From an uncultured Eubacteriales bacterium (lineage in GTDB: Bacteria; Bacillota; Clostridia; Oscillospirales; CAG-272), in the NCBI GenBank assembly GCA_934481515.1, contig CAKSPO010000005.1, positions 165 to 64,164 of the forward strand: a DNA stretch of 64,000 bases, read 5' to 3'. Shown one piece after another: positions 1-60,053 of the stretch (position 1 is its first letter; each line of letters opens with the position of its first letter). Below the pieces are notes generated by a model that saw only the letters and a program-made list of their open reading frames with translations, did not search any database and was not told where the DNA came from. Made by a program: the position numbers and the translations under genes.

Positions 1-88
1 AAAAAAATGTCAAACCAAAAAGAAAAATGACCGCGATGAAAAACAGTTTTTCCGGCGTCGCACGAACATTCCGGTTTTTTCTGATTCC

Positions 89-112
89 GTAGGGGCGGGG
101 TCTGCCCGCCCG
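89..112 (+). repeat. REP core, short form
   Basis: gtaggggcggggtctgcccgcccg: GTAG head, then a 7-bp stem GGGCGGG/CCCGCCC with a 5-nt loop. Confidence 0.85.
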
Positions 113-244
113 TTTGTGCGGGTTTTGCGGTACAGCTGGTAGGGGCACCAACGAGCGCCTTTTTAAGAGAGAGGCACCAGTACCACAAACAAAAAATCCG
201 GCGGGGGAAATGCCGCCGGGATGATGGTACAGATTCCTTAGAAA

Positions 245-268
245 CGGGCGGGTAGACCCCGCCCCTAC
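245..268 (-). repeat. REP core, short form
   Basis: Reverse complement reads gtaggggcggggtctacccgcccg; inverted partner of core 89-112. Confidence 0.85.
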
Positions 269-414
269 GGTGGGTAGAGGAAATTTTTTTATTCAGCAGA
301 AGCCGGATGCGGAATGGGGAAATGGGATTTTTCATCCGTCGGAAACCGTAAAAATGCCGCAACAAAAAGCAAAATTCCCGGCGTCGCACAGGCGTTCCGG
401 TTCCCTCCTCGCCG

Positions 415-438
415 GTAGGGGCGGGGTCGACCCGCCCG
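415..438 (+). repeat. REP core, short form
   Basis: gtaggggcggggtcgacccgcccg. Confidence 0.85.
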
Positions 439-576
439 TTTGTGAGGAGATTGCGGCACATTGGGAAGGGGCGCCAGCGAACGCATCCGATTGTCCGATT
501 TACCGCGTTGTAAATGGGCACCCGTCCCCGGCGGGGGGGGAATGTCGCCGGAATGGTTGTTTGGATTCCTTAGAAG

Positions 577-616
577 CGGGCGGGTTGACCCCGCGCGGGC
601 AACGCCCGTTTCCTAC
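577..616 (-). repeat. REP core, long form
   Basis: Reverse complement reads gtaggaaacgggcgttgcccgcgcggggtcaacccgcccg; nested hairpin CGGGC-GTT-GCCCG replaces the 5' arm; inverted partner of 415-438. Confidence 0.8.
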
Positions 617-669
617 GAGGTAGAGGGGATTCCAACGTTTGACGGGAGCCGGATGCGTAATGACAAATA

Positions 670-800
670 GGATTTTTCGTCCGGCGGAGACGGAGCGGAA
701 TGTGTAAACGGGATTTTTCGCCCGGTGGGAACCGGAAACGGAATGGCAGATGGGATTTTGTTCGTACGGTGGGAACCGGAAGTACAGAAGCCGGAAAACG
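670..800 (+). repeat. Tandem 40-42-nt hairpin units (boxB-like)
   Basis: Units start at about 670, 710 and 752: GGATTTTTCG(T/C)CCGG..GA..CCGGA..GGAATG...; each carries a short YCCGG/CCGGR hairpin. Confidence 0.7.
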
Positions 801-849
801 GCAGGAAACAAAAGCGGAAGCGCTGATGATTTTTTCACCAGTGCTTCCG
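801..849 (-). terminator. Possible terminator of the lipoprotein gene
   Basis: Stem CGGAAGC (815-821) / GCTTCCG (843-849) with a 21-nt loop, followed on the minus strand by TTTTGTTTCC; the long loop makes it weak. Confidence 0.35.
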
Positions 850-881
850 TTTTCATTTTTTATCCTGTTCTTTTCCTTTTC

Positions 882-1580: not shown

Positions 1581-4205
1581 TCAGCTGTTTTCTTCGCCGT
1601 TTTCGGACTCTGCGGTCGTCTCTGCGGTTGTTTCGGCGGGTTCTTCAGCAGTCGGTTCCCCGTCGATTTTGACGGTTCCGGTGGTTTCCTCCGCATTCTC
1701 AGTGGATTCTTCTTCGTTCTCCCCGTTTTCTTCGTCCGTCTCGTCCTTCTTGGGTACCGTGGTGAAGTTCACCAGCTTCTGTCCGTCTCCGAGCCGCATG
1801 ACGATGACGCCTCCGGCGCTTCTCGAACGGCTGGGAATGCCCTCTACGGGGGTGCGGATGATGGTTCCTCCGTCGGTAATCATCATCAGATCCATTTCGT
1901 CGTTGACCGCCGCAATGCCCGTCAGAGCGCCGCTCTTTTCGGTCAGATTGTAGCAGGTGACGCCGTATCCGCCGCGGTGCTTCATCAGGCGGAAATCGTC
2001 AAACGGGCTACGCTTGCCGAATCCGTTTTCCGTAATGCAGAGCAGGTCTTTGCCTTCCTCCACCACGCAGACTCCTTTGACGTAATCTCCGTCGCGCAGA
2101 GAGATTCCGCGGACGCCCCGTGCGGTTCTGCCGAGCACACGTGCATCCTCCTCGGAGAAGCGGATCGCCTGTCCGGCGGCAGTTGCAATCAGAAGCTCGC
2201 AGTCGCCCTGCGTGCGGACCACGTAAACCAGCTCGTCTCCCTCGTCCAGAGACAGTGCGATTTTTCCGCCCTTTCTCTGGTATTCATATTCGGAGAGCCG
2301 CGTCCGTTTGATAACGCCGTTTCTTGTCACCATGGTCAGGTACTCGTCCTCCGGGAACGCATCTACGCTGATGCAGGCGGTCACCTTTTCCCCATCGGTC
2401 AGATCCAGAATATTGACCAGATTCTGTCCCCGCGCGGTTCTGCCCGCCTCCGGAATCAGATATGCCTTGCGCATCTGCATCTTTCCGGTGTTGGTGAACA
2501 TCATCAGGTACGAATGGCTGTTGACCGAAAGCACCTGCTCGATATAATCCTCGTCCTTGGTGGACATGCCGATGATACCGCGTCCGCCGCGATGCTGTGC
2601 GGAGTAGGAATCCGACGGCTGGCGCTTGATATATCCGGCGTGCGTCAGGGTAATGACGCAGTTGTGGCGCTCGATCAGATCCTCCAGAATGATCTCATGC
2701 TCGGCGGGAACGATGGCTGTCCGGCGCTCGTCCGCATATTTTGCACGAATCTCTCCCATTTCGTTTTTGATGATCTCTTTGATTTTTCCCATATCGGCAA
2801 GAATGGCTTCCAGTTCCAGAATCAGCTTGTGCAGCCGATCCAGCTCTTCCTCGATCTTGCTCCGTTCCAGGCCCGTGAGCTTTCCGAGCGTCATCTCGAC
2901 GATTGCCTGCGACTGTGCGTCGCTCAGTCCGAACCGTTCCATCAGGGTTTGCTTGGATGCCGGAATGGAGGCGGAGGTCTTCATGATCTGCACAATCTCG
3001 TCGATGTTATCCAGTGCAATCTTGTAGCCCTCATAAATATGCGCTTTTGCCTTCGCCTTTTCCAGATCATACTCGGTCCGGCGGATGATGACCTGCTCCT
3101 GATGCGCGATATAATGATCCAGAATGGTGGGAAGGCTGAGCACCTTCGGCTCGTTGTTGACCAGTGCCAGCATATTGATGGCAAAGGTATCCTGCAATTG
3201 TGTATATTTGTACAGCTGGTTGAGCAGAATCTGCGGATTTGCGTCCTTGCGGTATTCCACCACGATTCTCATGCCGTCCCTGCCGGATTCGTCCCGCAGT
3301 TCGGTAATGCCTTCGATCTTCTTTTCCTTCACGCAGTCCGCGATGGACTGGCAGAGCATGCTCTTATTGACCCCGTAAGGAATTTCGGTGAAAACAATTC
3401 TCCGGTGTTCTTCCTCGATGTTGGAGTGGGAACGCACCATGATGTGTCCTTTTCCGGTCAGGTACGCTTCCTTGATGCCGTTGACACCGTAAATGGTCGC
3501 GCTGGTCGGGAAGTCCGGTCCCTTGATGTACTGCATCAGGTCGTCCACCGTGCAGTCCGGGTGATCCATCCGGTAAATGGTTGCGTCAATGACCTCTCCG
3601 AGGTTGTGCGGCGGAATGTTGGTTGCCATACCGACGGCAATTCCCATTGAGCCGTTGACCAGAAGGTTCGGGAAACGGGACGGCAGAACCGTCGGCTCCT
3701 GCATGCGGTTATCGAAGTTCGGCATCATGGGAACCACGTTCTTGTCCAGATCCCGCATCATTTCGTCTGCAATCCGATCCAGTCTTGCTTCGGTATACCG
3801 GTATGCCGCGGCGGGATCTCCATCCACAGAGCCGAAGTTTCCGTGACCTTCAATCAATGTATAACGCATGGAGAAATCCTGTGCCATACGAACCATGGTT
3901 CCGTAAACCGCGGAGTCGCCGTGCGGATGGTAACGACCCAGTACGTTACCAACCGTGGTAGCGGATTTGCGGAACGGCTTGGAATGCACCAATCCGTCCT
4001 CCCACATGGCATACAGAATCCGGCGCGCGCCCGGCTTCATACCGTCGCGCACGTCCGGAAGAGCACGGGACATGATGACCGACATGGAATATTCGATAAA
4101 GGATTTTTTGACCTCCTTTTCGATTCCCACGTCCACAATTTTCTGGTTTTCGAACAGGGCAAGTTCCTGTTCCTTTTCCAACTGTTTGTCTTTTTCGTTT
4201 GCCAC
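1581..4205 (-). CDS. gyrA: DNA gyrase subunit A
   Basis: 874-aa ORF; [24 protein letters not shown], active-site region [11 protein letters not shown], beta-pinwheel repeats; long acidic C-terminal tail; TGA stop. Confidence 0.97.
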
Positions 4206-4269: not shown

Positions 4270-4824
4270 TTATATCTGCCCTCTTCTTTTTTTCAGGATC
4301 CGACAGACGGTGCGCACCGGAAAATAACATACAAGTCCCGCCAGTGCGGTGATTCCAAGCTCCGGAAGTACCTCTGTCAGAAGAATCTCCGGAAGCCGGA
4401 TGTAACGGTAGGTCAGTGCGGCGTAGGTCACCGTCATTCCCGCCCTGAGACACAGCCCGCACAACAGGCACAAAAGGTAAATCGGATAGCTTCTGCCCTG
4501 CATCTCTCTGGAAAAGTTGCCCGCGACATAGCCGCAGAACAGGTAGAGAACCGGAAGCAGAGAAATACCGGTGGAGCCGAGCGCTTCAATCAGAAATCCG
4601 GCGCCGATGCCGGTAATTGCTCCGGCGTACCTGCCGCAGAGCACCGAAAACGCAAGCACCGTACACAGCATCAGATCCGGTACCGCTCCGAAAAAGCGGA
4701 GCCGCCCGAACAGAGAGACCTGCAAAACCGCCGCAATCAGGAGCACCGCCCCGAATATCAGTGTATACCGGAGCATCATGGATCGGGTCTGTGCCCGGTA
4801 ACCGAACACGCGATTCTGTGCCAT
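4270..4824 (-). CDS. mreD: Rod shape-determining protein MreD-like membrane protein
   Basis: 184 aa, about 5 TM segments, G..PDLML..V.....G...G...GF..G pattern typical of MreD; lies downstream of mreC on the same strand. Confidence 0.65.
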   Translation of the reverse strand: MAQNRVFGYRAQTRSMMLRYTLIFGAVLLIAAVLQVSLFGRLRFFGAVPDLMLCTVLAFSVLCGRYAGAITGIGAGFLIEALGSTGISLLPVLYLFCGYVAGNFSREMQGRSYPIYLLCLLCGLCLRAGMTVTYAALTYRYIRLPEILLTEVLPELGITALAGLVCYFPVRTVCRILKKRRGQI

Positions 4825-4898
4825 TTTTTCTCCTTTCCCGGATTTATACCCGGCGGGGGAAAGCCGCCGCCGGGGTGGTTGTGCGAATTTCTTAGGAG

Positions 4899-4922
4899 CG
4901 GGCGGGCAGACCCCGCCCCTAC
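4899..4922 (-). repeat. REP core, short form
   Basis: Reverse complement reads gtaggggcggggtctgcccgcccg. Confidence 0.85.
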
Positions 4923-5056
4923 GGGATATATAGAGATCCTTTGCCCAGCGGAAGCCGGAGCGGAATGACCGACGGGGAATTTTTCGTCTGGCAGAAGCCG
5001 TTAATGAAAAACAATTTTTCGGCGGTGCGCAAGCGTTCCGGTTTTCTCCTACCTCG

Positions 5057-5096
5057 GTAGGAAGCAGGCAAAGCCTGCGCGGGGTCTACCCGCCCG
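5057..5096 (+). repeat. REP core, long form
   Basis: gtaggaagcaggcaaagcctgcgcggggtctacccgcccg; nested hairpin GCAGGC-AAA-GCCTGC. Confidence 0.8.
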
Positions 5097-5231
5097 TTTG
5101 TGTGGGTTTTGAGGCACATTGGGTAGAGGTACAAACAATGCATCCGTTTGTTCCATTTGCCGTGTTGTAAATGGACACCCGTTCCCGGTTGGGAAAATCC
5201 CGCCGGAATGATTGTCCGGACTTCTTAGAAG

Positions 5232-5255
5232 CGGGCGGGCAGACCCCGCCCCTAC
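5232..5255 (-). repeat. REP core, short form
   Basis: Reverse complement reads gtaggggcggggtctgcccgcccg. Confidence 0.85.
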
Positions 5256-5340
5256 GGGATATATAGAGATCCTTTGCCCAGCGGAAGCCGGATGCGGAAT
5301 GTGTAGATGGAATTTTTCGTCTGGTAGGAGCCGGATGCAG

Positions 5341-5511
5341 AGTGGAAAGTTATCGTTTTGCAAAACAGCAAAAATTCCATGATACAGTTCACACCTCATC
5401 CGTCAGCCTTCGGCTGACACCTTCTCCCACTGGAGAAGGCTTTGGGGTAAATGCCCCTTGGATAAAAATCTATGCTGATTGCCGTGGGCATGTTCGGCTT
5501 TCATTCCTTTC
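5341..5511 (+). repeat. Module C, copy 1 (conserved arms, 23-nt centre)
   Basis: Arms match 14162-14223 and 14321-14407; centre is the hairpin GTCAGCC-TTCG-GCTGAC. Confidence 0.75.
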
Positions 5512-5662
5512 CGGAAAAATATCAAACCGAAACGAAAAATGCCGATATAAAAAACAATGATAATGGCAAACGGGATTTTTTGTCCGACAGAAGCCGGGAA
5601 AATACCGGGAGAAAAAGCAATTTTTCCGGCGGTGCACAAGCTTCCCGGTTCTCTCTGATTCC

Positions 5663-5686
5663 GTAGGGGCGGGGTCTGCCCGCCCG
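5663..5686 (+). repeat. REP core, short form
   Basis: gtaggggcggggtctgcccgcccg. Confidence 0.85.
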
Positions 5687-5730
5687 CTCCGAAACGATTT
5701 TTGCAAACGTTCCGGTTCCCTCCAAAGCCG

Positions 5731-5770
5731 GTAGGAAGCAGGCAAAGTCTGCGCGGGGTCTACCCGCCCG
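5731..5770 (+). repeat. REP core, long form
   Basis: gtaggaagcaggcaaagtctgcgcggggtctacccgcccg. Confidence 0.8.
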
Positions 5771-5832
5771 TTTGTGCGGGTTTTGAGAGACATCGGGCGG
5801 GGGTTGGAACGCAAAGAAAATATTTTATTCTT

Positions 5833-11636: not shown

Positions 11637-11645
11637 TGTGGACAA
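11637..11645 (-). promoter_or_regulatory. DnaA box
   Basis: TGTGGACAA on the plus strand (complement TTGTCCACA), 1 mismatch to consensus. Confidence 0.6.
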
Positions 11646-11698
11646 CCAAAATTCCCTTGTGAGACAATGATTTTTTGAAATCCTGTTTTGCGTTTGTC

Positions 11699-11707
11699 TG
11701 TGGAAAA
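11699..11707 (-). promoter_or_regulatory. DnaA box
   Basis: TGTGGAAAA on the plus strand (complement TTTTCCACA), 1 mismatch. Confidence 0.6.
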
Positions 11708-11808: not shown

Positions 11809-11817
11809 CTTTCCACA
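11809..11817 (+). promoter_or_regulatory. DnaA box (weak)
   Basis: CTTTCCACA, 2 mismatches. Confidence 0.45.
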
Positions 11818-12015: not shown

Positions 12016-12092
12016 TACGGAAAAGTGTTGTTGAAAGGGGAAAAGGAGGAGGGGGAAATGCCGCCGGGGTGTTGGTTCGTATTTCTTAGAAA

Positions 12093-12132
12093 CGGGCGGG
12101 TGGACCCCGCGCAGGCTTTGCCTGCTTCCTAC
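12093..12132 (-). repeat. REP core, long form
   Basis: Reverse complement reads gtaggaagcaggcaaagcctgcgcggggtccacccgcccg. Confidence 0.8.
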
Positions 12133-12284
12133 CGAGGTAGAGGGGATTCCGACGTTTGACGGGAGCCGGAGCGGAATGTGTAGATGGGATTTTTAGCCCG
12201 GCGAAAGCCGATAAGAAAATGAAAATGACCGCAATGAAAACGGTTTTTCCGGCGTTGTACGAGCGTTCCGGTTTAATCAACTCG

Positions 12285-12308
12285 GTAGGGGCGGGGTCTA
12301 CCCGCCCG
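12285..12308 (+). repeat. REP core, short form
   Basis: gtaggggcggggtctacccgcccg. Confidence 0.85.
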
Positions 12309-12434
12309 TTTGTAAATGGTTTTGAGGTACATCTGGTAGAGGCACCAACAAGCGCCGCCCGATTGTTCGATTCGCCGCGTTGTAAATGGGCACCCGTTTC
12401 CGAGGGAAAAAAACGGAATGTTCGTGCGGATTTT

Positions 12435-13907: not shown

Positions 13908-14079
13908 GTTTTCTTTTTTGAAAACAGGAAAATTTACAAAAAATTTGATTATAGGAAAGAAAAAAAGAACCGATACCATGAAATTCGGAAAAAATTCAGA
14001 ACTCCGGGGAGAACATGGCCGCGGTTTTTGCAATGGGCGGTGGAATGATGACGGGATGGTTGTGCAGGTTCCATAGAGG

Positions 14080-14119
14080 CGGGCGGGTTGACCCCGCGCG
14101 GGCAAAGCCGGTTTCCTGC
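14080..14119 (-). repeat. REP core, long form, degenerate head
   Basis: Reverse complement reads gcaggaaaccggctttgcccgcgcggggtcaacccgcccg (GCAG instead of GTAG). Confidence 0.65.
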
Positions 14120-14161
14120 GGACATAGAAGAGTTTTTTTGTTCAGCGGAAGCCGGAAGCGG

Positions 14162-14407
14162 AGTGGAAAGTTATCGTTTTGCAAAACAGCAAAAATTCCA
14201 TGATACAGTTCACACCTCATCCGCCGCTGACGCGGTTCCCCTGTCTCGCTGCGGCTCGGGCACACTCGGGTTCTGACAGTCCCCCGGACTGTCATTCATT
14301 ACCCTCGTGCCGCTTCGCTACCCACTGGAGAAGGCTTTGGGGTAAATGCCCCTTGCATAAAAAACTATGCTGATTGCCGTGGGCATGTTCGGCTTTCATT
14401 CCTTTCC
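14162..14407 (+). repeat. Module C, copy 2 (conserved arms, 97-nt centre)
   Basis: The left 62 nt and right ~86 nt match copy 1 (5341-5511); the centre (14224-14320) differs and contains the hairpin TGACAGTCC-CCCG-GACTGTCA. Confidence 0.75.
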
Positions 14408-14495
14408 CGCAAAAATGTCAAACCAAAACGAAAAATGCAGGGATAAAAAACAATTTTTCCGGCGGTGCACAAACGTTCCGGTTTTTTCTGATTCC

Positions 14496-14519
14496 GTAGG
14501 GGCGGGGTCAACCCGCCCG
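14496..14519 (+). repeat. REP core, short form
   Basis: gtaggggcggggtcaacccgcccg. Confidence 0.85.
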
Positions 14520-14653
14520 TTCGTGAAGGGGTTGCGGTACATCGGGCAGGGGCACCAAGGAACGCATCCGATTGGTCAATTACCGCATTACAAAGAAAAA
14601 TAAAATCCGGCGGGGTAGATGTTGCCGGGGTGGTTGTGCGAATTTCTTAGGAA

Positions 14654-14677
14654 CGGGCGGGTTGACCCCGCCCCTAC
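14654..14677 (-). repeat. REP core, short form
   Basis: Reverse complement reads gtaggggcggggtcaacccgcccg. Confidence 0.85.
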
Positions 14678-14753
14678 GGTGTGTAGAGGAAATTTTTTAT
14701 TCAGCAGAAGCCGGAAACATGCCGCCGGGATGGTTGTGCGGGTTCCTTAGAAG

Positions 14754-14793
14754 CGGGCGGGTAGACCCCGCGCGGGCAACGCCCGTTTCCTAC
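14754..14793 (-). repeat. REP core, long form
   Basis: Reverse complement reads gtaggaaacgggcgttgcccgcgcggggtctacccgcccg. Confidence 0.8.
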
Positions 14794-14934
14794 GAGGGAG
14801 AAGAAAATTTTTTGTTCAGCAGAAGCCGGAAACGTAATGTCAAATAGAATTTTTTCACCCGGCGGGAATCGAAAATACCGCAATGAAAAACGGTTTCCCG
14901 GCGTTGCACAAGCATTCCGGTTCCCCCTCAGTTG

Positions 14935-14974
14935 GTAGGATGCAGGCAAAGCCTGCGCAGGGTCTGCCCGCCCG
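14935..14974 (+). repeat. REP core, long form
   Basis: gtaggatgcaggcaaagcctgcgcagggtctgcccgcccg. Confidence 0.8.
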
Positions 14975-15115
14975 TTTGCGGAGGTTTTGCGGTACATCTG
15001 GCAGGGGCACCAATGTGCGTCTTTTAAGGAGCGGTTTTTCGTATTACAAAAACAAATCCGGCGGGGGAATGCCCGCTCGTTTCTGAAAAGTCTGTACAAT
15101 CATTCCCGTAAAGCA

Positions 15116-17314: not shown

Positions 17315-17607
17315 AAAATGAGATCTCCTTTCCGCGGAATTTTTAGAATTTTGTTGGCTTGAGGTTTTATTTTTTGTGTTTTGGGGTGTTGAAATTACGC
17401 TTTTGAAACCGGGAAGCTGTTCTTCCGGCGTTTTTCAGTCGGATGCAGGCGTAAAATCCCATTCTTTATATCCTATGATATCCTATGCTACACTCTTTTT
17501 GTGTAAACCACTTGAACCTGATTTGATTTTTTTCTGATTCTGATGCAACCGGAATCGTGGCGGCGGACGGGGAAGCTGCCGGGATGGTTGTGCGGGTTCC
17601 TTAGAGG

Positions 17608-17647
17608 TGGACGGGTGGACCCTGCGCGGGCAACGCCCGTTTCCTAC
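17608..17647 (-). repeat. REP core, long form, degenerate
   Basis: Reverse complement reads gtaggaaacgggcgttgcccgcgcagggtccacccgtcca. Confidence 0.65.
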
Positions 17648-17801
17648 GAGGGAGATGGTATTTTTTCGTCCGGCGGAAGCCGGATGCGTAATGACAAATA
17701 GGATTTTTTCGCCCAGCAGAAGCCGATAAGAAAATGAAAATGACCGCAATGTAAAACAAATTTTCCGGCGTTGCGCAAGCGTTCCGGTTCCCTTTCAATT
17801 G

Positions 17802-17841
17802 GTAGGATGCAGGCAAAGCCTGCGCAGGGTCTGCCCGCCCG
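17802..17841 (+). repeat. REP core, long form
   Basis: gtaggatgcaggcaaagcctgcgcagggtctgcccgcccg (same sequence as 14935-14974). Confidence 0.8.
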
Positions 17842-18008
17842 TTTGTGCGAATTTTGCGGTACAGCGGACAGGGGCACCAGCGAACGCATCCGATTGTCCG
17901 ATTTACCGCGTTGTAAATGGGCACCCGTTTCCGGCAGGCGCGGGAAGAGGAAAAAATCTTTTATCATTCCGAAGCCAAAGAGGAAAAGAATTTTTTATCG
18001 TGGAGGAG

Positions 18009-24384: not shown

Positions 24385-24592
24385 CGTACAAGCATTCCGG
24401 TTCCCTATCGGTTGGCATTGGCGGTCGGGATAGAAGAATTTTTTCGTCCGGCGGAAAGCGGAAACAAAAATGAAAAACGACCGGGAGGAAAAACAGTTTT
24501 TCGGCGTTGTGCAAGTGTTCCGGCTCTATCTAACTTGGTGGGGGCGGGGTCGACCCGCCCGTTCGCGCGGATTTCGCGGTATATCAGATAGG
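24385..24592. repeat. REP-like repeat block R6 (single unit)
   Basis: Tandem-unit remnants, then ..GAAAAACAGTTTTTCGGCG..GTTCCGG.., then the core at 24538. Confidence 0.75.
24538..24561 (+). repeat. REP core, short form, GTGG head
   Basis: gtgggggcggggtcgacccgcccg. Confidence 0.8.
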
Positions 24593-24877
24593 GATATCAA
24601 CAACCACGGTTCCGGTTCCCTTCAAGTCCGGCAGGGAGCGGGCATTTATTTCTGGCAAAGCAACCGAGCTTTCCATCTGTTCACACATTTTTTCTGCCGA
24701 GTACGGATCAATCGCATATTTCGAAGTTTTCGGAACGCCGTAATTTTTTTGTAAAAACTCATCGTATTTTTTTAGAAAAGAAAGCCGCTCACTTACCGTA
24801 AAATCCTCATTATCCGTAAAATCACTGTAAGCTTTTTTATGTTTTTGATCGACTTGTATAAATTCATAATACGGCAT
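24584..24877 (-). CDS. Hypothetical protein (low-G+C islet)
   Basis: 97-aa ORF with no recognisable motif; its 3' end runs into repeat block R6. Confidence 0.35.
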   Translation of the reverse strand: MPYYEFIQVDQKHKKAYSDFTDNEDFTVSERLSFLKKYDEFLQKNYGVPKTSKYAIDPYSAEKMCEQMESSVALPEINARSLPDLKGTGTVVVDIPI

Positions 24878-37392: not shown

Positions 37393-37560
37393 GGGGAAAT
37401 TTGTCTCCTTCATTGTTGTTTTTGATGTTGTGTGCAGGACAGGCTGCATCGGCGTTCGGTCGTCGGGGTGGTTTTACCGGCTGCTTTGAACGCCGGGAGC
37501 GGGATAACAAATGTTCAAAGTGTGTTTCCCGCCGGGATAATTGTGCGAATTTCTTAGGAG

Positions 37561-37584
37561 CGGGCGGGTAGACCCCGCCCCTAC
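37561..37584 (-). repeat. REP core, short form
   Basis: Reverse complement reads gtaggggcggggtctacccgcccg. Confidence 0.85.
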
Positions 37585-37593
37585 GAGAGAGAT

Positions 37594-37770
37594 GGTATTT
37601 TTTCGCCCGGCAGAAGCCGGGAGCGGAATGACAAATAGGATTTTTCGCCCGGTAGGAGCCGGAAACAGAATGAAAAACGGGATTTTTTCGCCCGGTAGGA
37701 GCCGGGAGCGGAATGTGTAAACGGAATTTTTCGTCCGGTAGAAGCCGGAAAAATATTGCAATGAAAAACA
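37594..37770 (+). repeat. Tandem 41-44-nt hairpin units x4 (boxB-like)
   Basis: Units start at 37594, 37638, 37679 and 37723: GG(T/A)ATTTTT(T)CGCCCGG(C/T)AG(A/G)AGCCGG(G/A)A..GAATG....AAA.; stem CCCGGC/GCCGGG or TCCGG/CCGGA. Confidence 0.8.
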
Positions 37771-37811
37771 ATTTTCCGGCGGTGCACGAACGTTCCGGTT
37801 TAACCAACCCG

Positions 37812-37835
37812 GTAGGGGCGGGGTCTGCCCGCCCG
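37812..37835 (+). repeat. REP core, short form
   Basis: gtaggggcggggtctgcccgcccg. Confidence 0.85.
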
Positions 37836-37969
37836 TTCGCGAAGGGGTTGCGGTACATTGGGTAGAGGGACAAACAACGCATCCGATTGTTCGATTCACC
37901 GCGTTGTAAATGGGTACCCGTTTCCGGTGGGGTAAATGCCGCGGGAAGGTTGTGCGAATTTCTTAGGAG

Positions 37970-38009
37970 CGGGCGGGCAGACCCTGCGCGGGCAACGCCT
38001 GTTTCCTAC
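37970..38009 (-). repeat. REP core, long form
   Basis: Reverse complement reads gtaggaaacaggcgttgcccgcgcagggtctgcccgcccg. Confidence 0.8.
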
Positions 38010-38151
38010 CGGGAATCAAGAATTTTTTCGTCCGGCAAAAGCCGGAACGGAATGATCAAAGGGGATTTCCTTGCCCGGTGGAAGCCGGAGGCATAATGGC
38101 AAATGGCTTTTTTCGCCCGGCGGAAGACGGGAACACAGAGCCGGGGAGTGC

Positions 38152-48549: not shown

Positions 48550-48555
48550 TTGTTC

Positions 48556-51707: not shown

Positions 51708-54700
51708 ATGAAGATTTTCAACAGAGTTCTTGCCATGCTCCTGACACTTGTTACAGTGTTGGCGGTTCTGCCGATCGGAGCAATGGCGGATGCCTGGCTG
51801 GAAGTAGACGCAAAAACGGATGCGGAATCCGGAGGTACCGTCACGGATCTGACGGTTACGGTGGATCCGTCGGCGCTTTTGGCGTATCTGAAGAGCCGGG
51901 ATATTTCTGCCCTGCTTGCCGGGATTTCTCTGAACAATGTCAAGAGCGTTCTTACGCTTGATGAAATTCTGGAGATTGTTCCGCAGGCGCAAGGGAAGGA
52001 GATCATTACCGATGCGATGAACACGCTCGGAAACGATCTGGATGCGATTGTGGATCTGGCGGCAGCGGCGGATCTGATTGATCCAGCCAAGCTTTCCTCC
52101 GGCTATTACGATGAAGAAAAGCTGAAGAACCTGATTGCGGAGAAAACCGCATCGGAGCTTTCGGATTACATCGTAACGGAAAATCTGAAGAATCTGATTT
52201 CTTCTGTGGATGCGGCAACGCTCGGCGATTATATCGATGAGGACGCACTTCGCAATCTGCTTGCCGCAAAATCTGCCGAAACGCTGGCGGACTATCTGGA
52301 TGAGGCTGCTTTCCGCAATCTGCTCGGAAACCGGGCGGCATCTCTTTCCGCTTATGTGAAGAACGACCGGCTGAAGGATTTGTTTGCCGGAAAAACCTAT
52401 AACGACCTGAAGGCTTGCATCAACCGCGAGGATCTGCTTGCAAAGATCTCCGGAACCGCATACGGCTCTTTGACTGCCTATGTGAACGAAGAAGCCGTAA
52501 AGACCATTTTTGAAAGAGAAGTGGATGCGGCTGTACTGGCTCCCTATTATAATGGAAGCGAGCTGGATGTAGCGGCGGTTTATGCCAATAAGAGCATTAC
52601 CACGACGAGCCTGCTTCAGATGATGGTGGATGAAAATGCCATTGACGTCACTTCCATGTTGCTGGGTGCAACCCCGCTGTTCTCGGTTGCAACCCTGGCA
52701 GAGGAGGGAATCATTGATGTCAATGCGATGCTGACCGGTTCCACCAAAATCTTTGAAGTGCAGGAGCTTTTGGATGCCGAGGTGCTGGATCTGGATCTCG
52801 CAATGAACGGCAACGGCTCCGGTGTGGCCCCCCTGTTTACGACAGCTGAACTTCTGGATAATAATATTGTATTGATAGATGTTGTCGTTTCCGGCGACGA
52901 AGCGAACGGCGTTCCCGCGCTGTTTACGGTTGCGGAGCTGCTGAATGCAGATGTGGTGGATCTGGATCTGGTGCTTTCCGGCGATGAAGCCAACGGGATC
53001 CCTGCGCTGTTTACGGTTGCGGAGTTGCTGAATGCAAACGTTGTGGATCTGAAGCTTGCGTTGGCAGGCGACAGTGCCAACGGAATTGTTGCGCTGTTCT
53101 CCGTTGCAGACCTGCTTGCGGACGGTACACTGAACCTCAATGCCATTCTGATGGGCGATGAGGCGCAGAACCTTCCTGCGCTCATCAATGTCCGCCAGCT
53201 TCTGACGGCGGGAGTGATTACCAAAGACGGCATCCGGACGGCGCTGACGCTGCTTGGTACCGATAAAATCGTTTCCTATGTTACCCGCGTATACAACGCG
53301 GTGCGCAAGAATGTGGATCAGATTACCCTTGGCGGATATGTAATTGCCGAGGAGGATGATCTTGCCTTCCTGACCATCAACGCGACCAACCTGATCCGCG
53401 CGTTCAAGGAACTGATCCCGACGCTGGAGAATCTGCGCGATCTGGAAACCAACGGCACACTTCTGAAAACCGATTTCTCCTTTACCTATCAGTCCGAGGC
53501 GACCGGCGATCTTCCCAAAACGAAGAAGTTTAATGTAACGGTTCAGCTGGACGGCGGTGTCGAAGCCGTCAAGAAGGTTCGCCTTGCCGCGGAGAAGCTC
53601 TTGGCGCAGGCGAAGAAATTCGTTTCCGATTTCAGCTATGAAAACGGAAAGCTGACGCTTGGCGTTGTCATTCCTTCTCAGTTTGCGGATGCTTTTGCAA
53701 AGCTTTTGGAGAAGCTGGACGAGGTAAATCCGGCACTGAAGGATCAGATTCTTGCTCTGCATGACAAAAATGCAACCGACATGGTGGAGTTTGTAAATCA
53801 GCTCACGGTCGGCGAGATCAGACAGATTCTTGAAATGGTGGATGCCAATGATTTCCGTGCGGTATATCAGCGCGTGATGGCTTCCTACTATGTGGATTTC
53901 CTTCTGAACTATATCAAGACCGCAACGGGCTATGATTTTACGGGGTATACGCTGGAGGATCTGGTAGGAAAGGCTACCGAGCTTCCTACGCTCCGGCAGA
54001 TTTGTGACAAGCTGAAGAGCCTGACCGGTGTGGATGTGCTTTCCAAGCTTCCTGTTTCCGACGGAAGCGCGGATGCGAAGGTAACCGAACTGTTCACCAA
54101 GGCGGTGAAGAAGGCGACCGGGTACACCGTAAACTTCCAGGAAATTCTGGAGAACGCGGCTGCAGCCGCAGATCCGGTACAGGCACTGTATGATGCCGTA
54201 CTGGAGAAAATCGACGACGCTGAGGGAATGTTTGAAGCGGTCAAGAACCGCATCCTGCCGTATGCGGAGCGGGTTCTCAACTCCGGGATCGGTTCCCAAA
54301 TCAACGGTGTAACGCTGGATAGCCTGTATCGCAACAACGGTCTGTTCTCGGCATCCGCTTCCGCAAGCGTTGATGTCAAGCAGCTGTTGCAGCTTGTTTC
54401 CGATGCGTTCTTTGCAAAGGCAGGCTCCTACATTGAGCTTGCAACCGGAAAGATTCTGGATCGCCTTCCCGCACAGGCATCCGGTGTTATCAGCACCGAC
54501 TTCGTGCAGAAGGTGGTCAACAAGATCCTTGCCGCAATGCCCGGATATACCTACAGCTTCTCTTTGGAGCTGGGTGTGACCGTTGCAAAACTGCATCGGA
54601 TCACCTTCTATGATACCGACGGCGTTACTGTCCTGAAGAAGGTATTCCTGCCTGCCGGTGTCAAGCTTGACAGCATTCTGCACTACACTCCCGAAACACT

Positions 54701-57257: not shown

Positions 57258-57290
57258 TTTCTGATCGGGGTCGAAAGACATGATTTTTAT

Positions 57291-57322
57291 GCAGGGAAAA
57301 CTTCTGTGGAAGTTTTCCCTGC
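57291..57322 (+). terminator. Strong hairpin after the giant gene (no clear U-tract)
   Basis: CAGGGAAAACTTC-TGTG-GAAGTTTTCCCTG: 13-bp perfect stem. Confidence 0.45.
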
Positions 57323-57377
57323 TGTGTCTCTATACGGCTTTTGACAGCGGAAAAAGAAAAGAGGGGAATAGGAAGAA

Positions 57378-58124
57378 ATGGAATTTTCAAAAGTTTATCC
57401 GGTGCTGTGGCATGATACTGACCCAAACCGGGTGATTCGCCCTGCGCGGCTTTTGTCCTATATGCAGGAAACGGCGAATGCGCATCTTGCCTCCGCCGGA
57501 CTTTCGCTGGACGAACTCCGGGATCGGCGCGGCTTGGCGTATATTCTGAGCAGTATTTCGGCTTGCATTTATGAAAAACTGTATGCGGGGGATCGGATTG
57601 AAGTACAGACGTGGATGAGCGAGGGGCGCGGACTGCGCCATAACCGATGCTATCGGGTGTTGCGCGGGAAAGAGACTGTCGCGGAGGCGGTTTCGGTCTG
57701 GGCGCTAATTGATTTGCGGGAAAAGCGACTGCTCAAAAATGAGGAGTCTCCATATCCGATCGAGGCTTACGCAGCACCCAAGCTTCCGATTCCGCTGCGG
57801 ATTCATCTTCCTTTGACGGAGGAGATGCCGGTAGTCGGAACCCGAACGGTGAGCTATTCCGACATTGATTATAACGGACACATGAACAACACCCGATATC
57901 CGGATTTGCTTTGCGATTTTACGCCCGATATTCTTTCCCGGCGTATCACAGGATTTGCGCTCTCGTTTCTGCACGAGGCGACCTTCGGTCATGAGCTCCG
58001 GATTCACCGGGCAGAGGAGAACGGAAATTTTCTGTTCCGCGCATTGGATGCGGACGGAACGCATTGCCTGGATGCGGTACTTTATACCGAGGAGGACCGG
58101 ACGGTTCAACCGCAGGGAAAATGA
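57378..58124 (+). CDS. Acyl-ACP thioesterase family protein
   Basis: 248 aa; double hot-dog layout, ..WHDTDPNRVIRPARLLSYMQETA.. and second-half YSDIDYNGHMNNTRY. Confidence 0.8.
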   Translation: MEFSKVYPVLWHDTDPNRVIRPARLLSYMQETANAHLASAGLSLDELRDRRGLAYILSSISACIYEKLYAGDRIEVQTWMSEGRGLRHNRCYRVLRGKETVAEAVSVWALIDLREKRLLKNEESPYPIEAYAAPKLPIPLRIHLPLTEEMPVVGTRTVSYSDIDYNGHMNNTRYPDLLCDFTPDILSRRITGFALSFLHEATFGHELRIHRAEENGNFLFRALDADGTHCLDAVLYTEEDRTVQPQGK

Positions 58125-58155
58125 CCATCTCTCATTCAGAAAGGGACGTGCTGGT

Positions 58156-59388
58156 ATGAAGAAAAAGATCAGAATCAAAAAATGGAATCTGACCTTGTGG
58201 AAAAGCCGGGAGGAGACGGCGGATCTGCGGGAGACGGACGCGGTTGCAATCGGAAGGCATGCCTTCCGGAAGGTACCGGTCGAGGAGGTTTTGCTTCCCC
58301 CCTCACTTTCCGCCATCAAAACGGAGGCGTTTGTTCTTTGCGACCGTTTGAAAACGGTGGTTTTACCGGAGGAAAACAGCGTCGGAATTTCGGTTCGTGC
58401 CTTTGAAGGAAGTGTGCGTCTGCAGGAGGTGCTTCATCCGGAACGGATTTCTTCGGTCGGCGCACGGGCGTTCGCGGAATGCCGGATGCTTCGATCCCTG
58501 CAATTCAGCAGAGAATTGCGCAGAATCGGGGACGAGGCATTTGCGGAATGCCGGTCGATGGAGTCCGTCAACCTTCCCCCTTCGCTTTCCGCCCTTGGAA
58601 GATCCGCTTTCCGCAACTGCACAGAGCTGAAGACCGCAGCGCTGGAGGAGGGACTATCCTTTTTGTCTCCCTATCTGTTCGACGGATGCATTTCACTGAC
58701 AGAGGTGTCGCTGCCTGCTTCCGTGCGGGGAGTTCCGACGGGCGCTTTCCGCAATTGCGCGGCACTGGAAACGCTTTCCGTTCCCGGGACTGTCGCAAGG
58801 ATCGGGAAAAATGCCTTCCGGAGCTGTACAAGACTTTTCGCTCTGACGCTGGGGCTTGGCGTGGAAAGGATTGAAGCAGGTGCATTTTCGGATACCCCGC
58901 GTCTTCGGGAGGTCTTTGTTCCGAGAACGCTCAAAAAGCTTGGATGGCATGCGTTCGGTGACGGAAAGGTGCCGGACGAGGAAAAGATCGTTTTCTTCGC
59001 AGAGAACGAATATATGGAAAAACGATTGCGGCGGATGCTGTTTCTGTGCGGTTCTGCGGGACGCGCACGGGTGGAACGCATCGGAAAAGACCTCGAAACG
59101 CGGAAGCGGGAACGGCGGCGGACAGAGCTGGAGCAAAAGCCGGTGCATCTGATAGAACCGGAAGCAACGCCGGAACCGGAAGCAACGCCGGAACCGGAAG
59201 CAACGCCGGAACCGGAAGCAATGCCGGCACAGGAAGCCGCATCGGCGCCGGGAATGTCGGCTGCACAAAACTCGGACGCGGTGCTGTCGAATGAATCGCG
59301 GCGGATGGAGCCGGAATCGGTTCAGTCAACCATGAACAGACCGGAGCCGAACGACTCGGAGCCGAATTCATCGGAACCGACACCGTAG
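58156..59388 (+). CDS. BspA-type leucine-rich repeat protein with Pro/Glu-rich C-terminal tail
   Basis: ORF from 57955; start placed at MKKKIRIKK (410 aa); repeated IGxxAFxxCxxLxxVxLPxSL units; tail with EATPEP repeats. Confidence 0.8.
   Translation: MKKKIRIKKWNLTLWKSREETADLRETDAVAIGRHAFRKVPVEEVLLPPSLSAIKTEAFVLCDRLKTVVLPEENSVGISVRAFEGSVRLQEVLHPERISSVGARAFAECRMLRSLQFSRELRRIGDEAFAECRSMESVNLPPSLSALGRSAFRNCTELKTAALEEGLSFLSPYLFDGCISLTEVSLPASVRGVPTGAFRNCAALETLSVPGTVARIGKNAFRSCTRLFALTLGLGVERIEAGAFSDTPRLREVFVPRTLKKLGWHAFGDGKVPDEEKIVFFAENEYMEKRLRRMLFLCGSAGRARVERIGKDLETRKRERRRTELEQKPVHLIEPEATPEPEATPEPEATPEPEAMPAQEAASAPGMSAAQNSDAVLSNESRRMEPESVQSTMNRPEPNDSEPNSSEPTP
59155..59226 (+). repeat. 18-bp tandem repeat x4 (EPEATP)
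   Basis: GAACCGGAAGCAACGCCG starts at 59155, 59173, 59191 and 59209. Confidence 0.85.
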
Positions 59389-59589
59389 AATCTCCGAGCC
59401 CTGCCGAACCGACATCATGGCAAAGAAGGTTCCATCGGTTTGATGCGCCGGTACGTTTTGGAAACCGGAAAACTGTTTTTTTTTGCTCCCGGTAAAATTT
59501 CGGTTTGGGCATCTTTTCCGCATCGGTCGGACGATAAAAAATGTTTCTCGGGCGAAGGAATTTTATAAACCTCGCAGGAAGCGCGCACA

Positions 59590-59612
59590 GTAGCGCGGGG
59601 TCACCCCGCCCG
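59590..59612 (+). repeat. REP core, degenerate
   Basis: gtagcgcggggtcaccccgcccg. Confidence 0.55.
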
Positions 59613-59749
59613 TTTCCGAAGAACCCGAACAAACTTTCCGGCGACATTTCCCTCCGCAGGATTCTGTTTTCCCCTGCGGTGCGGCGAATCAAACAACCGG
59701 AACGGCGTTCGCCGGTGCCCCGCTCGATATATCGCGAAAACCGCACAAA

Positions 59750-59789
59750 CGGGCGCGTAAACCCTGCGCAGGCTGCGCCTGCTTCCTGC
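59750..59789 (-). repeat. REP core, long form, degenerate
   Basis: Reverse complement reads gcaggaagcaggcgcagcctgcgcagggtttacgcgcccg. Confidence 0.55.
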
Positions 59790-60053
59790 CGGGCTGGTTG
59801 AAAGGGGAACATTTGTACGACGTCGGAATTTTGTTTTTCATTGCGGTATTCTTTCGGTTTCTGCTGCCGATTTCCGGAAACACGGTCACCGATCGGATGC
59901 TCTTACATAAGATGGTAGGGAACGACGACGGCAGAATCAAGGGAGAAACGCCGGATTCCCCCGGAAAAGGCAATAAAAACGATCAAAAAACCCAAAAATA
60001 GAAAAAAAGGAAAAAACAACTGCTTGGATGACTGCAAAATTGTCAAAATGTCC

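What the first reader, a model, noticed from the sequence alone, without database searches (positions are those of the whole stretch)
1..59800. Dense GTAG-headed REP/REPIN-like hairpin family filling eight intergenic blocks
Seen in sequence:
- There are 24 copies, in both orientations, of a core GTAGGGGCGGGGTC-NN-CCCGCCCG. The stem is 7 bp (GGGCGGG/CCCGCCC) with a 5-nt loop.
- A 40-nt long form replaces the 5' arm with a nested hairpin (GCAGGC-AAA-GCCTGC or CGGGC-GTT-GCCCG).
- I found no copy inside a credible CDS. They cluster in blocks at 1-800, 4849-5810, 12052-12405, 14040-15085, 17565-17935, 24385-24592, 37521-38135 and 59575-59800. That is about 4.6 kb of 64 kb.
- Many copies form inverted doublets about 180-200 bp long with a conserved spacer. 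Examples are 415-616, 5057-5255 and 37812-38009, with spacer motif CCGCGTTGTAAATGGGCACCCG.
- The doublets are chained to 40-44-nt tandem hairpin units.

Established knowledge:
- A GTAG/GTGG head followed by an imperfect palindrome, arranged as inverted doublets (REPIN/BIME), defines REP elements. These are mobilised by RAYT (IS200/IS605-like Y1) transposases and are mostly described in Proteobacteria.
- A-(B)n-C modularity is known from pneumococcal BOX elements.

Inference: this is a REP/REPIN-type, possibly still active, non-autonomous element family in a Clostridia-like genome. No RAYT or other transposase gene lies in this window.
Basis: partly seen in the sequence, partly recalled or inferred. 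Interest (0 to 1): 0.8.

Follow-up and report, generated by a model that had tools for sequence, protein, structure and literature searches.

The report
REP-type hairpin repeat clusters, gut Clostridia
An uncultured human-gut Ruminococcaceae bacterium has eight gaps between genes around its replication origin filled with clusters of a GTAG-headed hairpin repeat of the known REP/REPIN kind; the repeats are real and spread recently, but they are a new member of a known class, not a new mechanism.

Summary
The window holds 24 copies, 12 short (24 nt) and 12 long (40 nt), of GTAG-GGGCGGG-loop-CCCGCCC-G. All are intergenic, in eight blocks totalling about 4.65 kb.

The copies fall into two flank classes, L and R. 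These pair as inverted doublets of about 200 nt that fold as long hairpins, chained with 43-nt units into mosaic clusters resembling E. coli BIMEs.

The window is the chromosomal origin region (gyrA, mreCD, gyrB, recF, dnaN, oriC, dnaA, parAB, gidAB) of an uncultured Ruminococcaceae from human-gut metagenomes. Independent assemblies reproduce the blocks.

Three related species have no copies in the syntenic region. Their mreC-mreD spacer is 22-215 bp, against about 1 kb here. One conspecific strain differs inside a block, including a long-to-short form switch. The family therefore expanded recently and is still changing.

The exact 22-nt core occurs in many phyla. In five loci it lies inside or next to RayT genes of TnpA_REP subclass 2.4, which is known for carrying in-gene REPs. 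The extended arms occur only in this organism.

No RAYT lies in the window or in 7.4 kb of extra contig, and the rest of the genome could not be searched. Verdict: a new member of a known kind, of moderate interest.

The parts
1..800 (.). Block A. It continues about 470 bp left of the window. It holds two doublets plus 43-nt units and lies between convergent genes.
4849..5810 (.). Block B, which fills the mreC-mreD spacer. It holds five REPs, an internal 333-bp direct repeat and the 'second segment'.
   Evidence: The spacer is 24 bp, 22 bp and 215 bp in relatives L125, L126 and L127.
12052..12405 (.). Block C, between the dnaA stop codon and the oriC DnaA-box cluster (11637-12015).
14040..15085 (.). 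Block D, upstream of dnaA and downstream of an ABC-auxiliary gene. It holds six REPs.
17565..17935 (.). Block E, with two long-form REPs and 43-nt units.
24385..24650 (.). Block F, with one GTGG-headed REP plus partial modules.
37521..38135 (.). Block G, with three REPs and a 3.5-copy array of 43-nt units.
59560..59800 (.). Block H, a degenerate doublet in the opposite orientation to the others, downstream of a + strand gene.
89..112 (+). REP, short form, L-type flank
245..268 (-). REP, short form, R-type flank. Partner of 89-112; the doublet fold has z -7.95.
415..438 (+). REP, short form, L-type
577..616 (-). REP, long form, R-type. Partner of 415-438; the doublet fold has z -3.9.
4899..4922 (-). 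REP, short form, R-type
5057..5096 (+). REP, long form, L-type. Strain L132 has the short form at this position.
5232..5255 (-). REP, short form, R-type
5663..5686 (+). REP, short form, with an L-type head flank and a truncated tail flank
5731..5770 (+). REP, long form, L-type
12093..12132 (-). REP, long form, R-type
12285..12308 (+). REP, short form, L-type
14080..14119 (-). REP, long form, R-type, with a GCAGG head
14496..14519 (+). REP, short form, L-type
14654..14677 (-). REP, short form, R-type
14754..14793 (-). REP, long form, R-type
14935..14974 (+). REP, long form, L-type
17608..17647 (-). REP, long form, R-type, degenerate
17802..17841 (+). REP, long form, L-type
24538..24561 (+). REP, short form, L-type, with a GTGG head
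37561..37584 (-). REP, short form, R-type
37812..37835 (+). REP, short form, L-type
37970..38009 (-). REP, long form, R-type. Partner of 37812-37835; the doublet fold has z -4.3.
59573..59612 (+). REP, long-like form, R-type flank, with a GCAGG head
59750..59789 (-). REP, long form, L-type flank, degenerate
37599..37748 (.). Array of 3.5 tandem 43-nt units. Each unit has a weak CCCGG/CCGGG hairpin.
198..219 (-). Spacer hairpin CCGGCGG...CCGCCGG followed by a T-run. It is terminator-like on the transcribed strand. The T-run is present in only some doublets.
5329..5558 (.). 'Second segment' module embedded in block B. It is 93-97% identical to its counterpart at 14150-14454 outside a variable middle.
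   Evidence: (D15, D18)
14150..14454 (.). 'Second segment' module in block D, the long variant, carrying a GTAG-headed palindromic piece of about 105 nt.

Best explanation
These are REP elements (repetitive extragenic palindromes) of the GTAG-tagged superfamily, organised as REPIN-like inverted doublets and chained into BIME-like mosaic clusters.

Basic unit: a 24-nt hairpin with an unpaired 5' GTAG, a 7-bp GGGCGGG/CCCGCCC stem and a 5-nt loop. A 40-nt variant carries an extra nested hairpin.

Higher-order arrangement: two arm classes, L and R, each with about 40 nt of conserved inner flank, face each other across a spacer of about 130 nt. As single-stranded DNA the pair folds into one long hairpin. 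Doublets alternate with a leader and 43-nt units in super-units of about 333 bp.

Proposed mechanism, inferred by analogy with E. coli TnpA_REP and with IS200/IS605: a single-copy HUH/Y1 enzyme of the RAYT (TnpA_REP) family, most likely subclass 2.4 (Bertels group 4), recognises the folded hairpin plus the GTAG guide on single-stranded DNA and cleaves and rejoins it, seeding new copies in intergenic DNA. Clusters then grow and are reshuffled by tandem duplication, block duplication and gene conversion between copies. Copies that persist lie just downstream of stop codons and share one orientation relative to the upstream gene, so they are probably transcribed as 3'-UTR or intra-operon hairpins. 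A few carry a terminator-like hairpin with a T-run.

Shown here: the anatomy, the folds, the intergenic restriction, the lineage-specific presence, the within-species polymorphism, and the identity of the core with REPs embedded in RayT genes elsewhere.

Inferred: that a RAYT exists in this genome and moved these copies, and any role at the RNA level.
For: Anatomy:
- 24 copies against 0 expected by chance.
- The hairpin leaves GTAG unpaired.
- The doublets fold as long hairpins, with z-scores of -3.9, -7.95 and -4.3.
- All copies are intergenic.
- The core is about 0.93-0.94 conserved, while the flanks decay beyond about 40 nt.

Real, not an artefact:
- The same blocks appear in independent assemblies from several samples at 99.8-100% identity.

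Recent spread:
- Syntenic origin regions of three relatives (L125, about 88% nt identity in the genes; L126; L127) contain no copy. Their intergenic spacers are much shorter; the mreC-mreD spacer is 24, 22 and 215 bp against 1005-1009 bp here.
- A block of about 930 bp is duplicated 5.4 kb away at 92% identity.
- Strain L132 has a short form where the window has a long form, within an ~80-bp patch of clustered changes, and the far half of the same block is different.

RAYT class link:
- The exact core occurs in at least 119 stretches across many phyla, including about 25 loci from Clostridia MAGs.
- In L034, L006, L092, L046 and L104 it lies inside or directly beside a RayT-like gene.
- In the two full-length ORFs (L034, L006) the motifs NH[VF]H, WQ and YIxxNP match subclass 2.4.
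- 107 of the 120 closest homologues of the L034 protein encode GG.TPPL, which is the REP read in frame. Sources name these proteins 'REP element-mobilizing transposase RayT'.
- In-gene REPs are the published hallmark of subclass 2.4 (PMC6006769).

Position and orientation:
- Four blocks start 17-31 nt after a stop codon.
- The L/R orientation is the same on both sides of the origin and flips only at block H, where the upstream gene is on the other strand.
Against: - No RAYT or any Y1 gene was found in the 64-kb window, in the remaining 7.4 kb of the source contig, or on any other contig of this organism that was fetched. The rest of the genome could not be searched.
- RAYT group 4 genes were reported to be flanked by only low-copy 16-mers, about 14 per replicon (PMC5581495). 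A dense population would be atypical for that group.
- The orientation does not flip at the replication origin, as a purely lagging-strand-targeted ssDNA insertion mechanism would predict.
- The units seen to duplicate (333 bp, 930 bp) are larger than a REPIN. Recombination could therefore account for much of the spread.
- Covariation support for the nested hairpin is minimal: one compensated pair, no better than shuffles.
- No clean 'empty versus filled' site at high flank identity was available to read a cleavage or target signature.
Confidence: 0.62

Rival explanations
1. A RAYT-independent mosaic repeat, comparable to BOX or ERIC elements, or an orphan REP population. The hairpin modules spread and are homogenised only by recombination, slipped-strand duplication and gene conversion. 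They are kept because, once transcribed, they act as 3'-UTR stabilisers, terminators or processing sites. The resemblance of the core to RAYT-type REPs would then be ancestral, with the RAYT since lost, or convergent.
For: - No RAYT was found in 71 kb.
- The orientation follows transcription, not replication.
- Blocks start 17-31 nt after stop codons.
- The spacer hairpin plus T-run is terminator-like in some copies.
- The duplication events seen are 333-bp tandem and 930-bp block duplications, plus an ~80-bp patch of clustered changes that looks like gene conversion.
Against: - Blocks lie at eight (ten with the contig extension) unlinked intergenic sites and are absent from the syntenic region compared in three relatives. 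That requires de novo insertion at new sites, which recombination alone does not provide.
- The core is base-for-base the REP class found inside RayT genes.
- The terminator scan shows no enrichment overall: 30 found against 28 expected.
Confidence: 0.22
2. The blocks are fragments and rearranged copies of one larger non-autonomous composite element of about 0.3-1.3 kb. It would consist of an R arm, spacer, L arm, leader, 43-nt units and the 'second segment', and would be moved as a unit by an unidentified transposase or integrase. The REP hairpins would be only its internal or terminal structures.
For: - A segment of about 930 bp containing all module types is duplicated at 92% identity.
- Module order is the same in blocks A, B and D.
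- The arm profiles (core plus 48 nt) are specific to this organism.
Against: - Blocks differ widely in content, from one REP in block F to six in block D.
- No terminal inverted repeats or target-site duplications delimit a common unit.
- Isolated doublets exist, such as blocks C and H.
- No match was found to any plasmid, phage or IMG/VR contig.
Confidence: 0.12
3. An artefact of metagenome assembly: collapsed or chimeric repeats.
For: Contigs from several samples end inside the blocks. This shows that assemblers struggle with these repeats.
Against: Contigs from independent samples and assemblers span whole blocks with 99.8-100% identity. L120 spans blocks C, D and E; L131 spans block B; L130 spans blocks A to C.
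Confidence: 0.01

Closest known systems
GTAG-tagged REPs cognate to TnpA_REP (RAYT) subclass 2.4 / Bertels group 4 (Quentin et al. 2018, PMC6006769; Bertels et al. 2017, PMC5581495)
   Same: - Unpaired 5' GTAG followed by a stem whose foot is three G-C pairs.
- Inverted doublets, the 'double foot' arrangement.
- The identical 22-nt core occurs inside or beside RayT genes whose full-length examples carry the subclass 2.4 motifs in other phyla.
   Different: - No RAYT has been found for this genome.
- The host class, Clostridia, is not listed for this subclass in the surveys.
- The local density (29 copies in 71 kb) is far above the roughly 14 flanking 16-mers per replicon reported for group 4.
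- The arms carry about 40 nt of lineage-specific conserved flank and a spacer of about 130 nt.
E. coli BIMEs (bacterial interspersed mosaic elements: Y/Z1/Z2 REPs plus linker motifs)
   Same: - REPs alternate in orientation.
- There are two or more REP variants that differ by a small insertion (short versus long form here; Z1 versus Z2 in E. coli).
- Conserved linker modules are present, and clusters have variable length.
- The location is extragenic, between tandem or convergent genes.
   Different: - The sequences are unrelated.
- The E. coli REPs belong to RAYT subclass 2.2.
- The linkers here are longer and include a 43-nt tandem unit and a module of about 230-300 bp.
- Binding of IHF, gyrase or Pol I, known for E. 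coli BIMEs, has not been tested here.
Pseudomonas fluorescens REPINs (Bertels & Rainey 2011)
   Same: - An inverted REP doublet forms one long hairpin.
- The population is specific to a lineage.
- Copies are absent from orthologous sites in relatives.
   Different: - The Pseudomonas doublets are shorter and mostly dispersed singly, with group 3 RAYTs.
- Here the doublets are about 200 nt and are clustered and chained.
Pneumococcal BOX elements, boxA-(boxB)n-boxC
   Same: Modular organisation with a variable number of an internal unit of about 43-45 nt, in intergenic locations.
   Different: - BOX elements have no GTAG-headed REP hairpins.
- They have no known link to a Y1 transposase.
- There is no sequence similarity.
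- The resemblance is an analogy only.
IS200/IS605 subterminal hairpins and their non-autonomous derivatives (PATEs)
   Same: Hairpins recognised as single-stranded DNA by an HUH/Y1 enzyme using a short guide sequence next to the hairpin.
   Different: - There is no transposase or TnpB cargo here.
- There are no distinct left and right IS ends.
- The orientation does not track the lagging strand across the origin.

Membership tests
REP (repetitive extragenic palindrome), GTAG superfamily | A 20-40 nt imperfect palindrome with an unpaired 5' GT[AG]G tag | tested here: met
   Of the 24 copies, 20 have GTAG, 1 has GTGG and 3 have GCAG. The fold shows a 7-bp stem and 5-nt loop with GTAG unpaired.
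REP (repetitive extragenic palindrome), GTAG superfamily | Extragenic location | tested here: met
   All 24 copies are intergenic, judged against the Pfam-supported gene map and the called genes.
REP (repetitive extragenic palindrome), GTAG superfamily | High copy number across the genome (typically >100) | not testable with these tools
   Only 71 kb of the genome was reachable. It holds 29 copies, and 3 more lie on another contig. JGI metagenomes lack the family.
REPIN / BIME | Two REPs in inverted orientation that form a single long hairpin, with clusters of alternating orientation | tested here: met
   Doublet folds have z-scores of -3.9 to -7.95. L and R types alternate in every block.
REPIN / REPtron | A cognate single-copy RAYT (TnpA_REP) gene in the same genome, flanked by or containing the REPs | not testable with these tools
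   None was found in the window, in the rest of the contig, or on other contigs of this organism.
REP class of TnpA_REP subclass 2.4 | [quoted passage not shown] | tested here: met
   This was met for the core, in other organisms. L034, L006, L092, L046 and L104 carry the core in or directly beside the gene. 107 of 120 homologues encode the in-frame REP peptide GG.TPPL.
Mobile element (any) | Presence/absence differences at orthologous sites | tested here: met
   There are no copies in the syntenic regions of L125, L126 and L127. Strain L132 differs within a block. No clean empty site was seen within the species.
MITE of a DDE insertion sequence | Terminal inverted repeats with a flanking target-site duplication, and a related full-length IS | tested here: not met
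   No transposase was found in the window (Pfam). There was no match in plasmids, phages or IMG/VR. By inspection, no recurrent ends with target-site duplications were seen.
Known structured RNA family | A match to an Rfam covariance model | tested here: not met
   The gathering-threshold scan found only a T-box at 48303-48552. E-value scans of blocks B and D found nothing meaningful.
Pneumococcal BOX element | Homology to the boxA, boxB and boxC modules | not tested
   No BOX sequence was on hand. The resemblance lies in modular layout only.

The most novel reading that the evidence does not exclude
A RAYT subclass 2.4-type REP has, in one gut Ruminococcaceae species, evolved into a higher-order composite element. 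Super-units of about 333 bp (R arm, spacer, L arm, leader, 43-nt units) would duplicate as whole blocks, insert inside operons (mreC-mreD) and at the edge of oriC, and be kept in one orientation relative to transcription because they act as RNA-level operon punctuation. The population might even be an orphan that persists without any RAYT. Either outcome would extend REPIN biology to Firmicutes and would challenge the view that group 4 RAYTs have only sparse REP populations.
Probability: 0.2. Interest if true: 0.65.

Novelty: new member of a known kind. Interest (0 to 1): 0.45.

Why it matters
REP/REPIN systems have been studied almost entirely in Proteobacteria. The two large surveys I read list no GTAG REP family in Firmicutes (PMC3733652) and place subclass 2.4 mainly in Cyanobacteria and Bacteroidetes, scattered across various other phyla (PMC6006769).

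This window shows a dense REP population that expanded recently in an uncultured human-gut Clostridia species. About 25 other loci from Clostridia MAGs carry the same GTAG-GGGCG foot. REP-type elements are therefore probably common but unannotated in gut Firmicutes.

Practical consequences:
- These repeats break metagenome assemblies; contigs end inside the blocks.
- They generate spurious gene calls, such as the ORF at 37346-37882.
- They separate genes that normally sit in one operon.
- They abut oriC.

If the cognate RAYT is found, this species would be a tractable case of a young REPIN population outside Proteobacteria.

Tried and rejected
- Two JGI metagenome scans with organism-specific patterns, the R-arm flank and the spacer motif, returned nothing.
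- I looked for the cognate RAYT with a profile built from L034 and L006. The search saturated at 8000 candidates, and the 120 hits listed were close homologues of the Anaerolineaceae query, the few named ones being Chloroflexi or Anaerolineales.
- I searched with a spurious ORF that crosses block G, hoping to find other copies or a RAYT carrying the REP. It returned only the window's own ORF and one 960-bp contig, L129.
- One look-up failed because the ORF start I used did not match the called gene.
- Translating the doublets showed no conserved reading frame, so the blocks are not protein-coding.
- Covariation analysis of the nested hairpin was not informative: one compensated pair, no better than shuffles.
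- The terminator and promoter scan showed no overall enrichment.
- Rfam searches, a tRNA scan and plasmid, phage and IMG/VR searches were negative for the blocks. The IMG/VR contigs that carry the generic core contain no RayT gene.
- Rejected on these results: CRISPR-like array, a known riboswitch or sRNA, a prophage or IS terminal repeat, and an assembly artefact.

Full report
**1. Observation**

The strict core GTAGGGGCGGGGTC-NN-CCCGCCCG matches 12 times at up to 2 mismatches, against none in 100 shuffles. I then anchored on the 3' arm and required a GT[AG]GG or GCAGG head. This gives 24 true copies, 12 of 24 nt and 12 of 40 nt, and I checked every coordinate. Four looser hits inside genes lack the head and the flanks and are chance matches.

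The short form folds as a 7-bp stem with a 5-nt loop, leaving GTAG unpaired. The long form adds a nested hairpin, GCAGGC-AAA-GCCTGC or CGGGC-GTT-GCCCG. The eight blocks sum to about 4.65 kb.

**2. Context**

Pfam places the window at the chromosomal replication origin.
- On the minus strand lie gyrA (1581-4205), an mreD-like gene (4270-4824), mreC, gyrB, recF, dnaN and dnaA (12435-13835).
- Further along lie serS, parB, parA, gidB, gidA, and valS with its T-box leader.
- Cumulative GC skew has its minimum near 12 kb.
- Ten DnaA-box-like sites cluster at 11637-12015.

No transposase domain was found in the window. All 24 copies are intergenic.

The source is an uncultured organism. The best-named GyrB relatives, at about 90% identity, are 'Ruminococcaceae bacterium' and 'Clostridia bacterium' MAGs. 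The contig is NODE_1191 (71,436 bp) of a Hadza human-gut metagenome, ENA ERZ4559945.

**3. Anatomy**

The copies fall into two flank classes.
- L-type copies are preceded by ttttccggcg.tgcacaagcgttccggtt and followed by tttgtgcgggttttgcggtaca.
- R-type copies are followed by cttctaaggaa...ccggcggcatttcccccgccgg.

The core is about 0.93-0.94 conserved. The inner 40 nt of each arm is 0.7-0.84 conserved, and conservation decays beyond that.

An R copy and an L copy face each other with heads outward across about 130 nt. As single-stranded DNA each pair folds into one long hairpin, with z-scores of -3.9, -7.95 and -4.3.

There are two spacer subtypes. One has the CCGCGTTGTAAATGGGCACCCG motif. The other has a T-run after the CCGGCGG hairpin and looks like a terminator on the transcribed strand.

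Doublets alternate with a leader and one to four 43-nt units. Block B contains a 333-bp internal direct repeat (D11). A further module of 230-300 bp, which I call the 'second segment', is embedded in blocks A, B and D. This mosaic layout is closest to E. coli BIMEs.

**4. Real and not confined to the window**

Independent assemblies from several samples reproduce whole blocks at 99.8-100% identity. Many contigs end inside blocks. This shows that the repeats break assemblies, not that assemblies created the repeats.

The contig's 5.6-kb left extension continues block A and ends in a tenth block. That block is a ~930-bp duplicate, 92% identical, of block A. A 960-bp contig from a sibling sample carries three more copies next to an Arc-like gene. 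This makes 32 known copies.

**5. Recent expansion and ongoing change**

I compared the syntenic origin regions of three relatives: L125 (GyrB 99% aa identity, about 88% nt identity in the genes), L126 and L127 (about 90% aa identity). None contains a copy.

| Spacer | This window | L125 | L126 | L127 |
|---|---|---|---|---|
| mreC-mreD | 1005-1009 bp | 24 bp | 22 bp | 215 bp |
| dnaA upstream | 1281 bp | 568 bp | not compared | not compared |
| dnaA-dnaN | 974 bp | 800 bp | 569 bp | 513 bp |

Within the species, strain L132 (about 98.6% identical) differs in block B in three ways.
- It has the short form where the window has the long-form REP at 5057-5096, inside an ~80-bp patch of clustered differences that looks like gene conversion.
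- It has a loop change in the REP at 5232-5255.
- The far half of the block is different.

The other strains sampled are identical, so current transposition is not demonstrated.

**6. Link to RAYT**

These span Poribacteria, Anaerolineae, Cyanobacteria, Bacteroidaceae, Deltaproteobacteria, Omnitrophota and about 25 loci from Clostridia MAGs. The flanks are unrelated, and the core is often paired with an inverted variant hairpin.

In five loci (L034, L006, L092, L046, L104) the core lies inside or directly beside a RayT-like ORF. The evidence for this is a phmmer match to E. coli RayT at 9e-7, a weak match to PF01797, and a profile search. In the two full-length ORFs the motifs MPNH[VF]HG, WQR.YY.H and YIE.NP fit TnpA_REP subclass 2.4.

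Of the 120 closest homologues, 107 encode GG.TPPL and 68 encode RRG..P.P, which are the REP doublet read in frame. Several sources name these proteins 'REP element-mobilizing transposase RayT'. Quentin et al. [quoted passage not shown]

The window's core therefore belongs to a REP class with a known cognate enzyme family. By contrast, profiles of the extended arms hit only this organism. The organism-specific patterns are absent from JGI metagenomes, IMG/VR, plasmids and phages.

No RAYT was found in the 71 kb available. The rest of the genome could not be searched.

**7. Position and orientation**

Blocks B, C, D and G begin 17-31 nt after the upstream gene's stop codon. In all blocks from 1 to 38 kb, R-type copies are on the minus strand, which is the strand of the neighbouring genes. 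This holds on both sides of the origin. At block H, where the upstream gene is on the plus strand, the doublet is inverted.

The orientation therefore tracks transcription, not replication. With six informative tandem contexts this is suggestive only. It fits selection for transcribed 3' hairpins. It fits less well a purely lagging-strand-directed insertion.

**8. Interpretation**

My best explanation, at confidence about 0.6, is a GTAG-REP family organised as REPIN-like doublets in BIME-like clusters. A RAYT-type HUH/Y1 enzyme seeded it, and duplication and gene conversion then amplified and reshuffled it.

The main rival, at about 0.2, is a RAYT-independent or orphan mosaic repeat maintained by recombination and by selection at the RNA level. 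A larger composite non-autonomous element is possible, at about 0.1. An assembly artefact is excluded for practical purposes.

**9. Novelty**

Di Nocera et al. 2013 list GTAG REPs in Proteobacteria, Cyanobacteria, Chloroflexi and the PVC group, but not in Firmicutes (PMC3733652). Bertels et al. 2017 place only group 1 RAYTs in Clostridia and report sparse repeats for group 4 (PMC5581495). My literature searches found no description of REPINs in gut Clostridia.

The kind is known. This family, its host lineage and its elaborate composite form are new. I rate it a new member of a known kind, with interest 0.45.

Noticed in passing
window 21864-22174: A 98-bp tandem repeat, 3.2 copies at 98% identity, lies between an ABC ATPase gene and a Bmp-family binding-protein gene. 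Each unit begins with a GGCGGGC...GCCCGC hairpin. Contig L120 from another sample has one copy fewer, so the copy number varies between samples.
   Followed up: partly
window 5329-5558 and 14150-14454; third copy at L130 14810-15090; related piece at L127 17702-17780: A second repeated module of 230-300 bp is embedded in the REP blocks. Its variable middle is either 25 nt or a GTAG-headed long palindrome of about 105 nt (GTAGCGAAGCGGCACGAGGG...TGACAGTCCGGGGGACTGTCA...CCGCAGCGAGAC). The middle differs between strains at the same site. A 79-nt stretch of the ~105-nt piece has an 87%-identical counterpart in an unrelated intergenic region of a relative that has no REP copies in the 19-kb syntenic region examined. 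This may be a second, older repeat family. It has no Rfam match.
   Followed up: partly
window 11637-12015: Ten DnaA-box-like sites (TTTTCCACA and variants) cluster between dnaN and dnaA and coincide with the GC-skew minimum. This is the likely oriC. REP block C begins 37 bp from the last box.
   Followed up: yes
loci L034 6740-6865, L006, L092, L046, L104; proteins P0001-P0120: RayT genes with subclass 2.4 motifs carry a REP doublet in frame. [quoted passage not shown] The trait is already published (PMC6006769) but is strikingly conserved.
   Followed up: yes
about 25 loci from Clostridia MAGs among L001-L119 (for example L032, L076, L083, L096, L107): Other Clostridia MAGs from gut, rumen and termite samples carry families with the same foot, GTAGGGGCG...CGCCCG, but with different stem tops (GAAC..GTTC, GGAT..ATCC, GGCC..GGCC), often as inverted or tandem pairs. 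This points to an unannotated REP superfamily in Firmicutes.
   Followed up: partly
window 37346-37882 (-): Public gene callers have called a 175-aa 'protein' across REP block G (P0241, seen on 6 contigs). It is a spurious ORF made of repeat modules.
   Followed up: yes
window 15116-40362: Nearly all genes to the right of the inferred origin, over about 25 kb, are on the minus strand. By GC skew they are on the lagging strand, which is unusual for a Firmicute.
   Followed up: no
window 24650-25200: An AT-rich stretch (about 41% GC in the 24-26 kb bin) with small ORFs that have no Pfam match lies next to REP block F. It may be foreign DNA.
   Followed up: no
window 48303-48552 (-): A T-box leader (Rfam RF00230, 117.7 bits) lies upstream of valS.
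   Followed up: yes
window 59155-59237, 57131-57238, 52888-53116, 20231-20304: There are in-gene tandem repeats: 18-nt x4.6 at the 3' end of the BspA-type LRR gene, 12/24-nt and 87-nt repeats in the 1863-aa ORF, and 18-nt x4.1 near the ABC transporter genes.
   Followed up: no
L129 1-960: A 960-bp contig from a sibling sample (ENA ERZ27287392) carries three REPs of this family directly downstream of an AT-rich Arc-like repressor gene. The context may be a mobile element or a second genomic site.
   Followed up: partly
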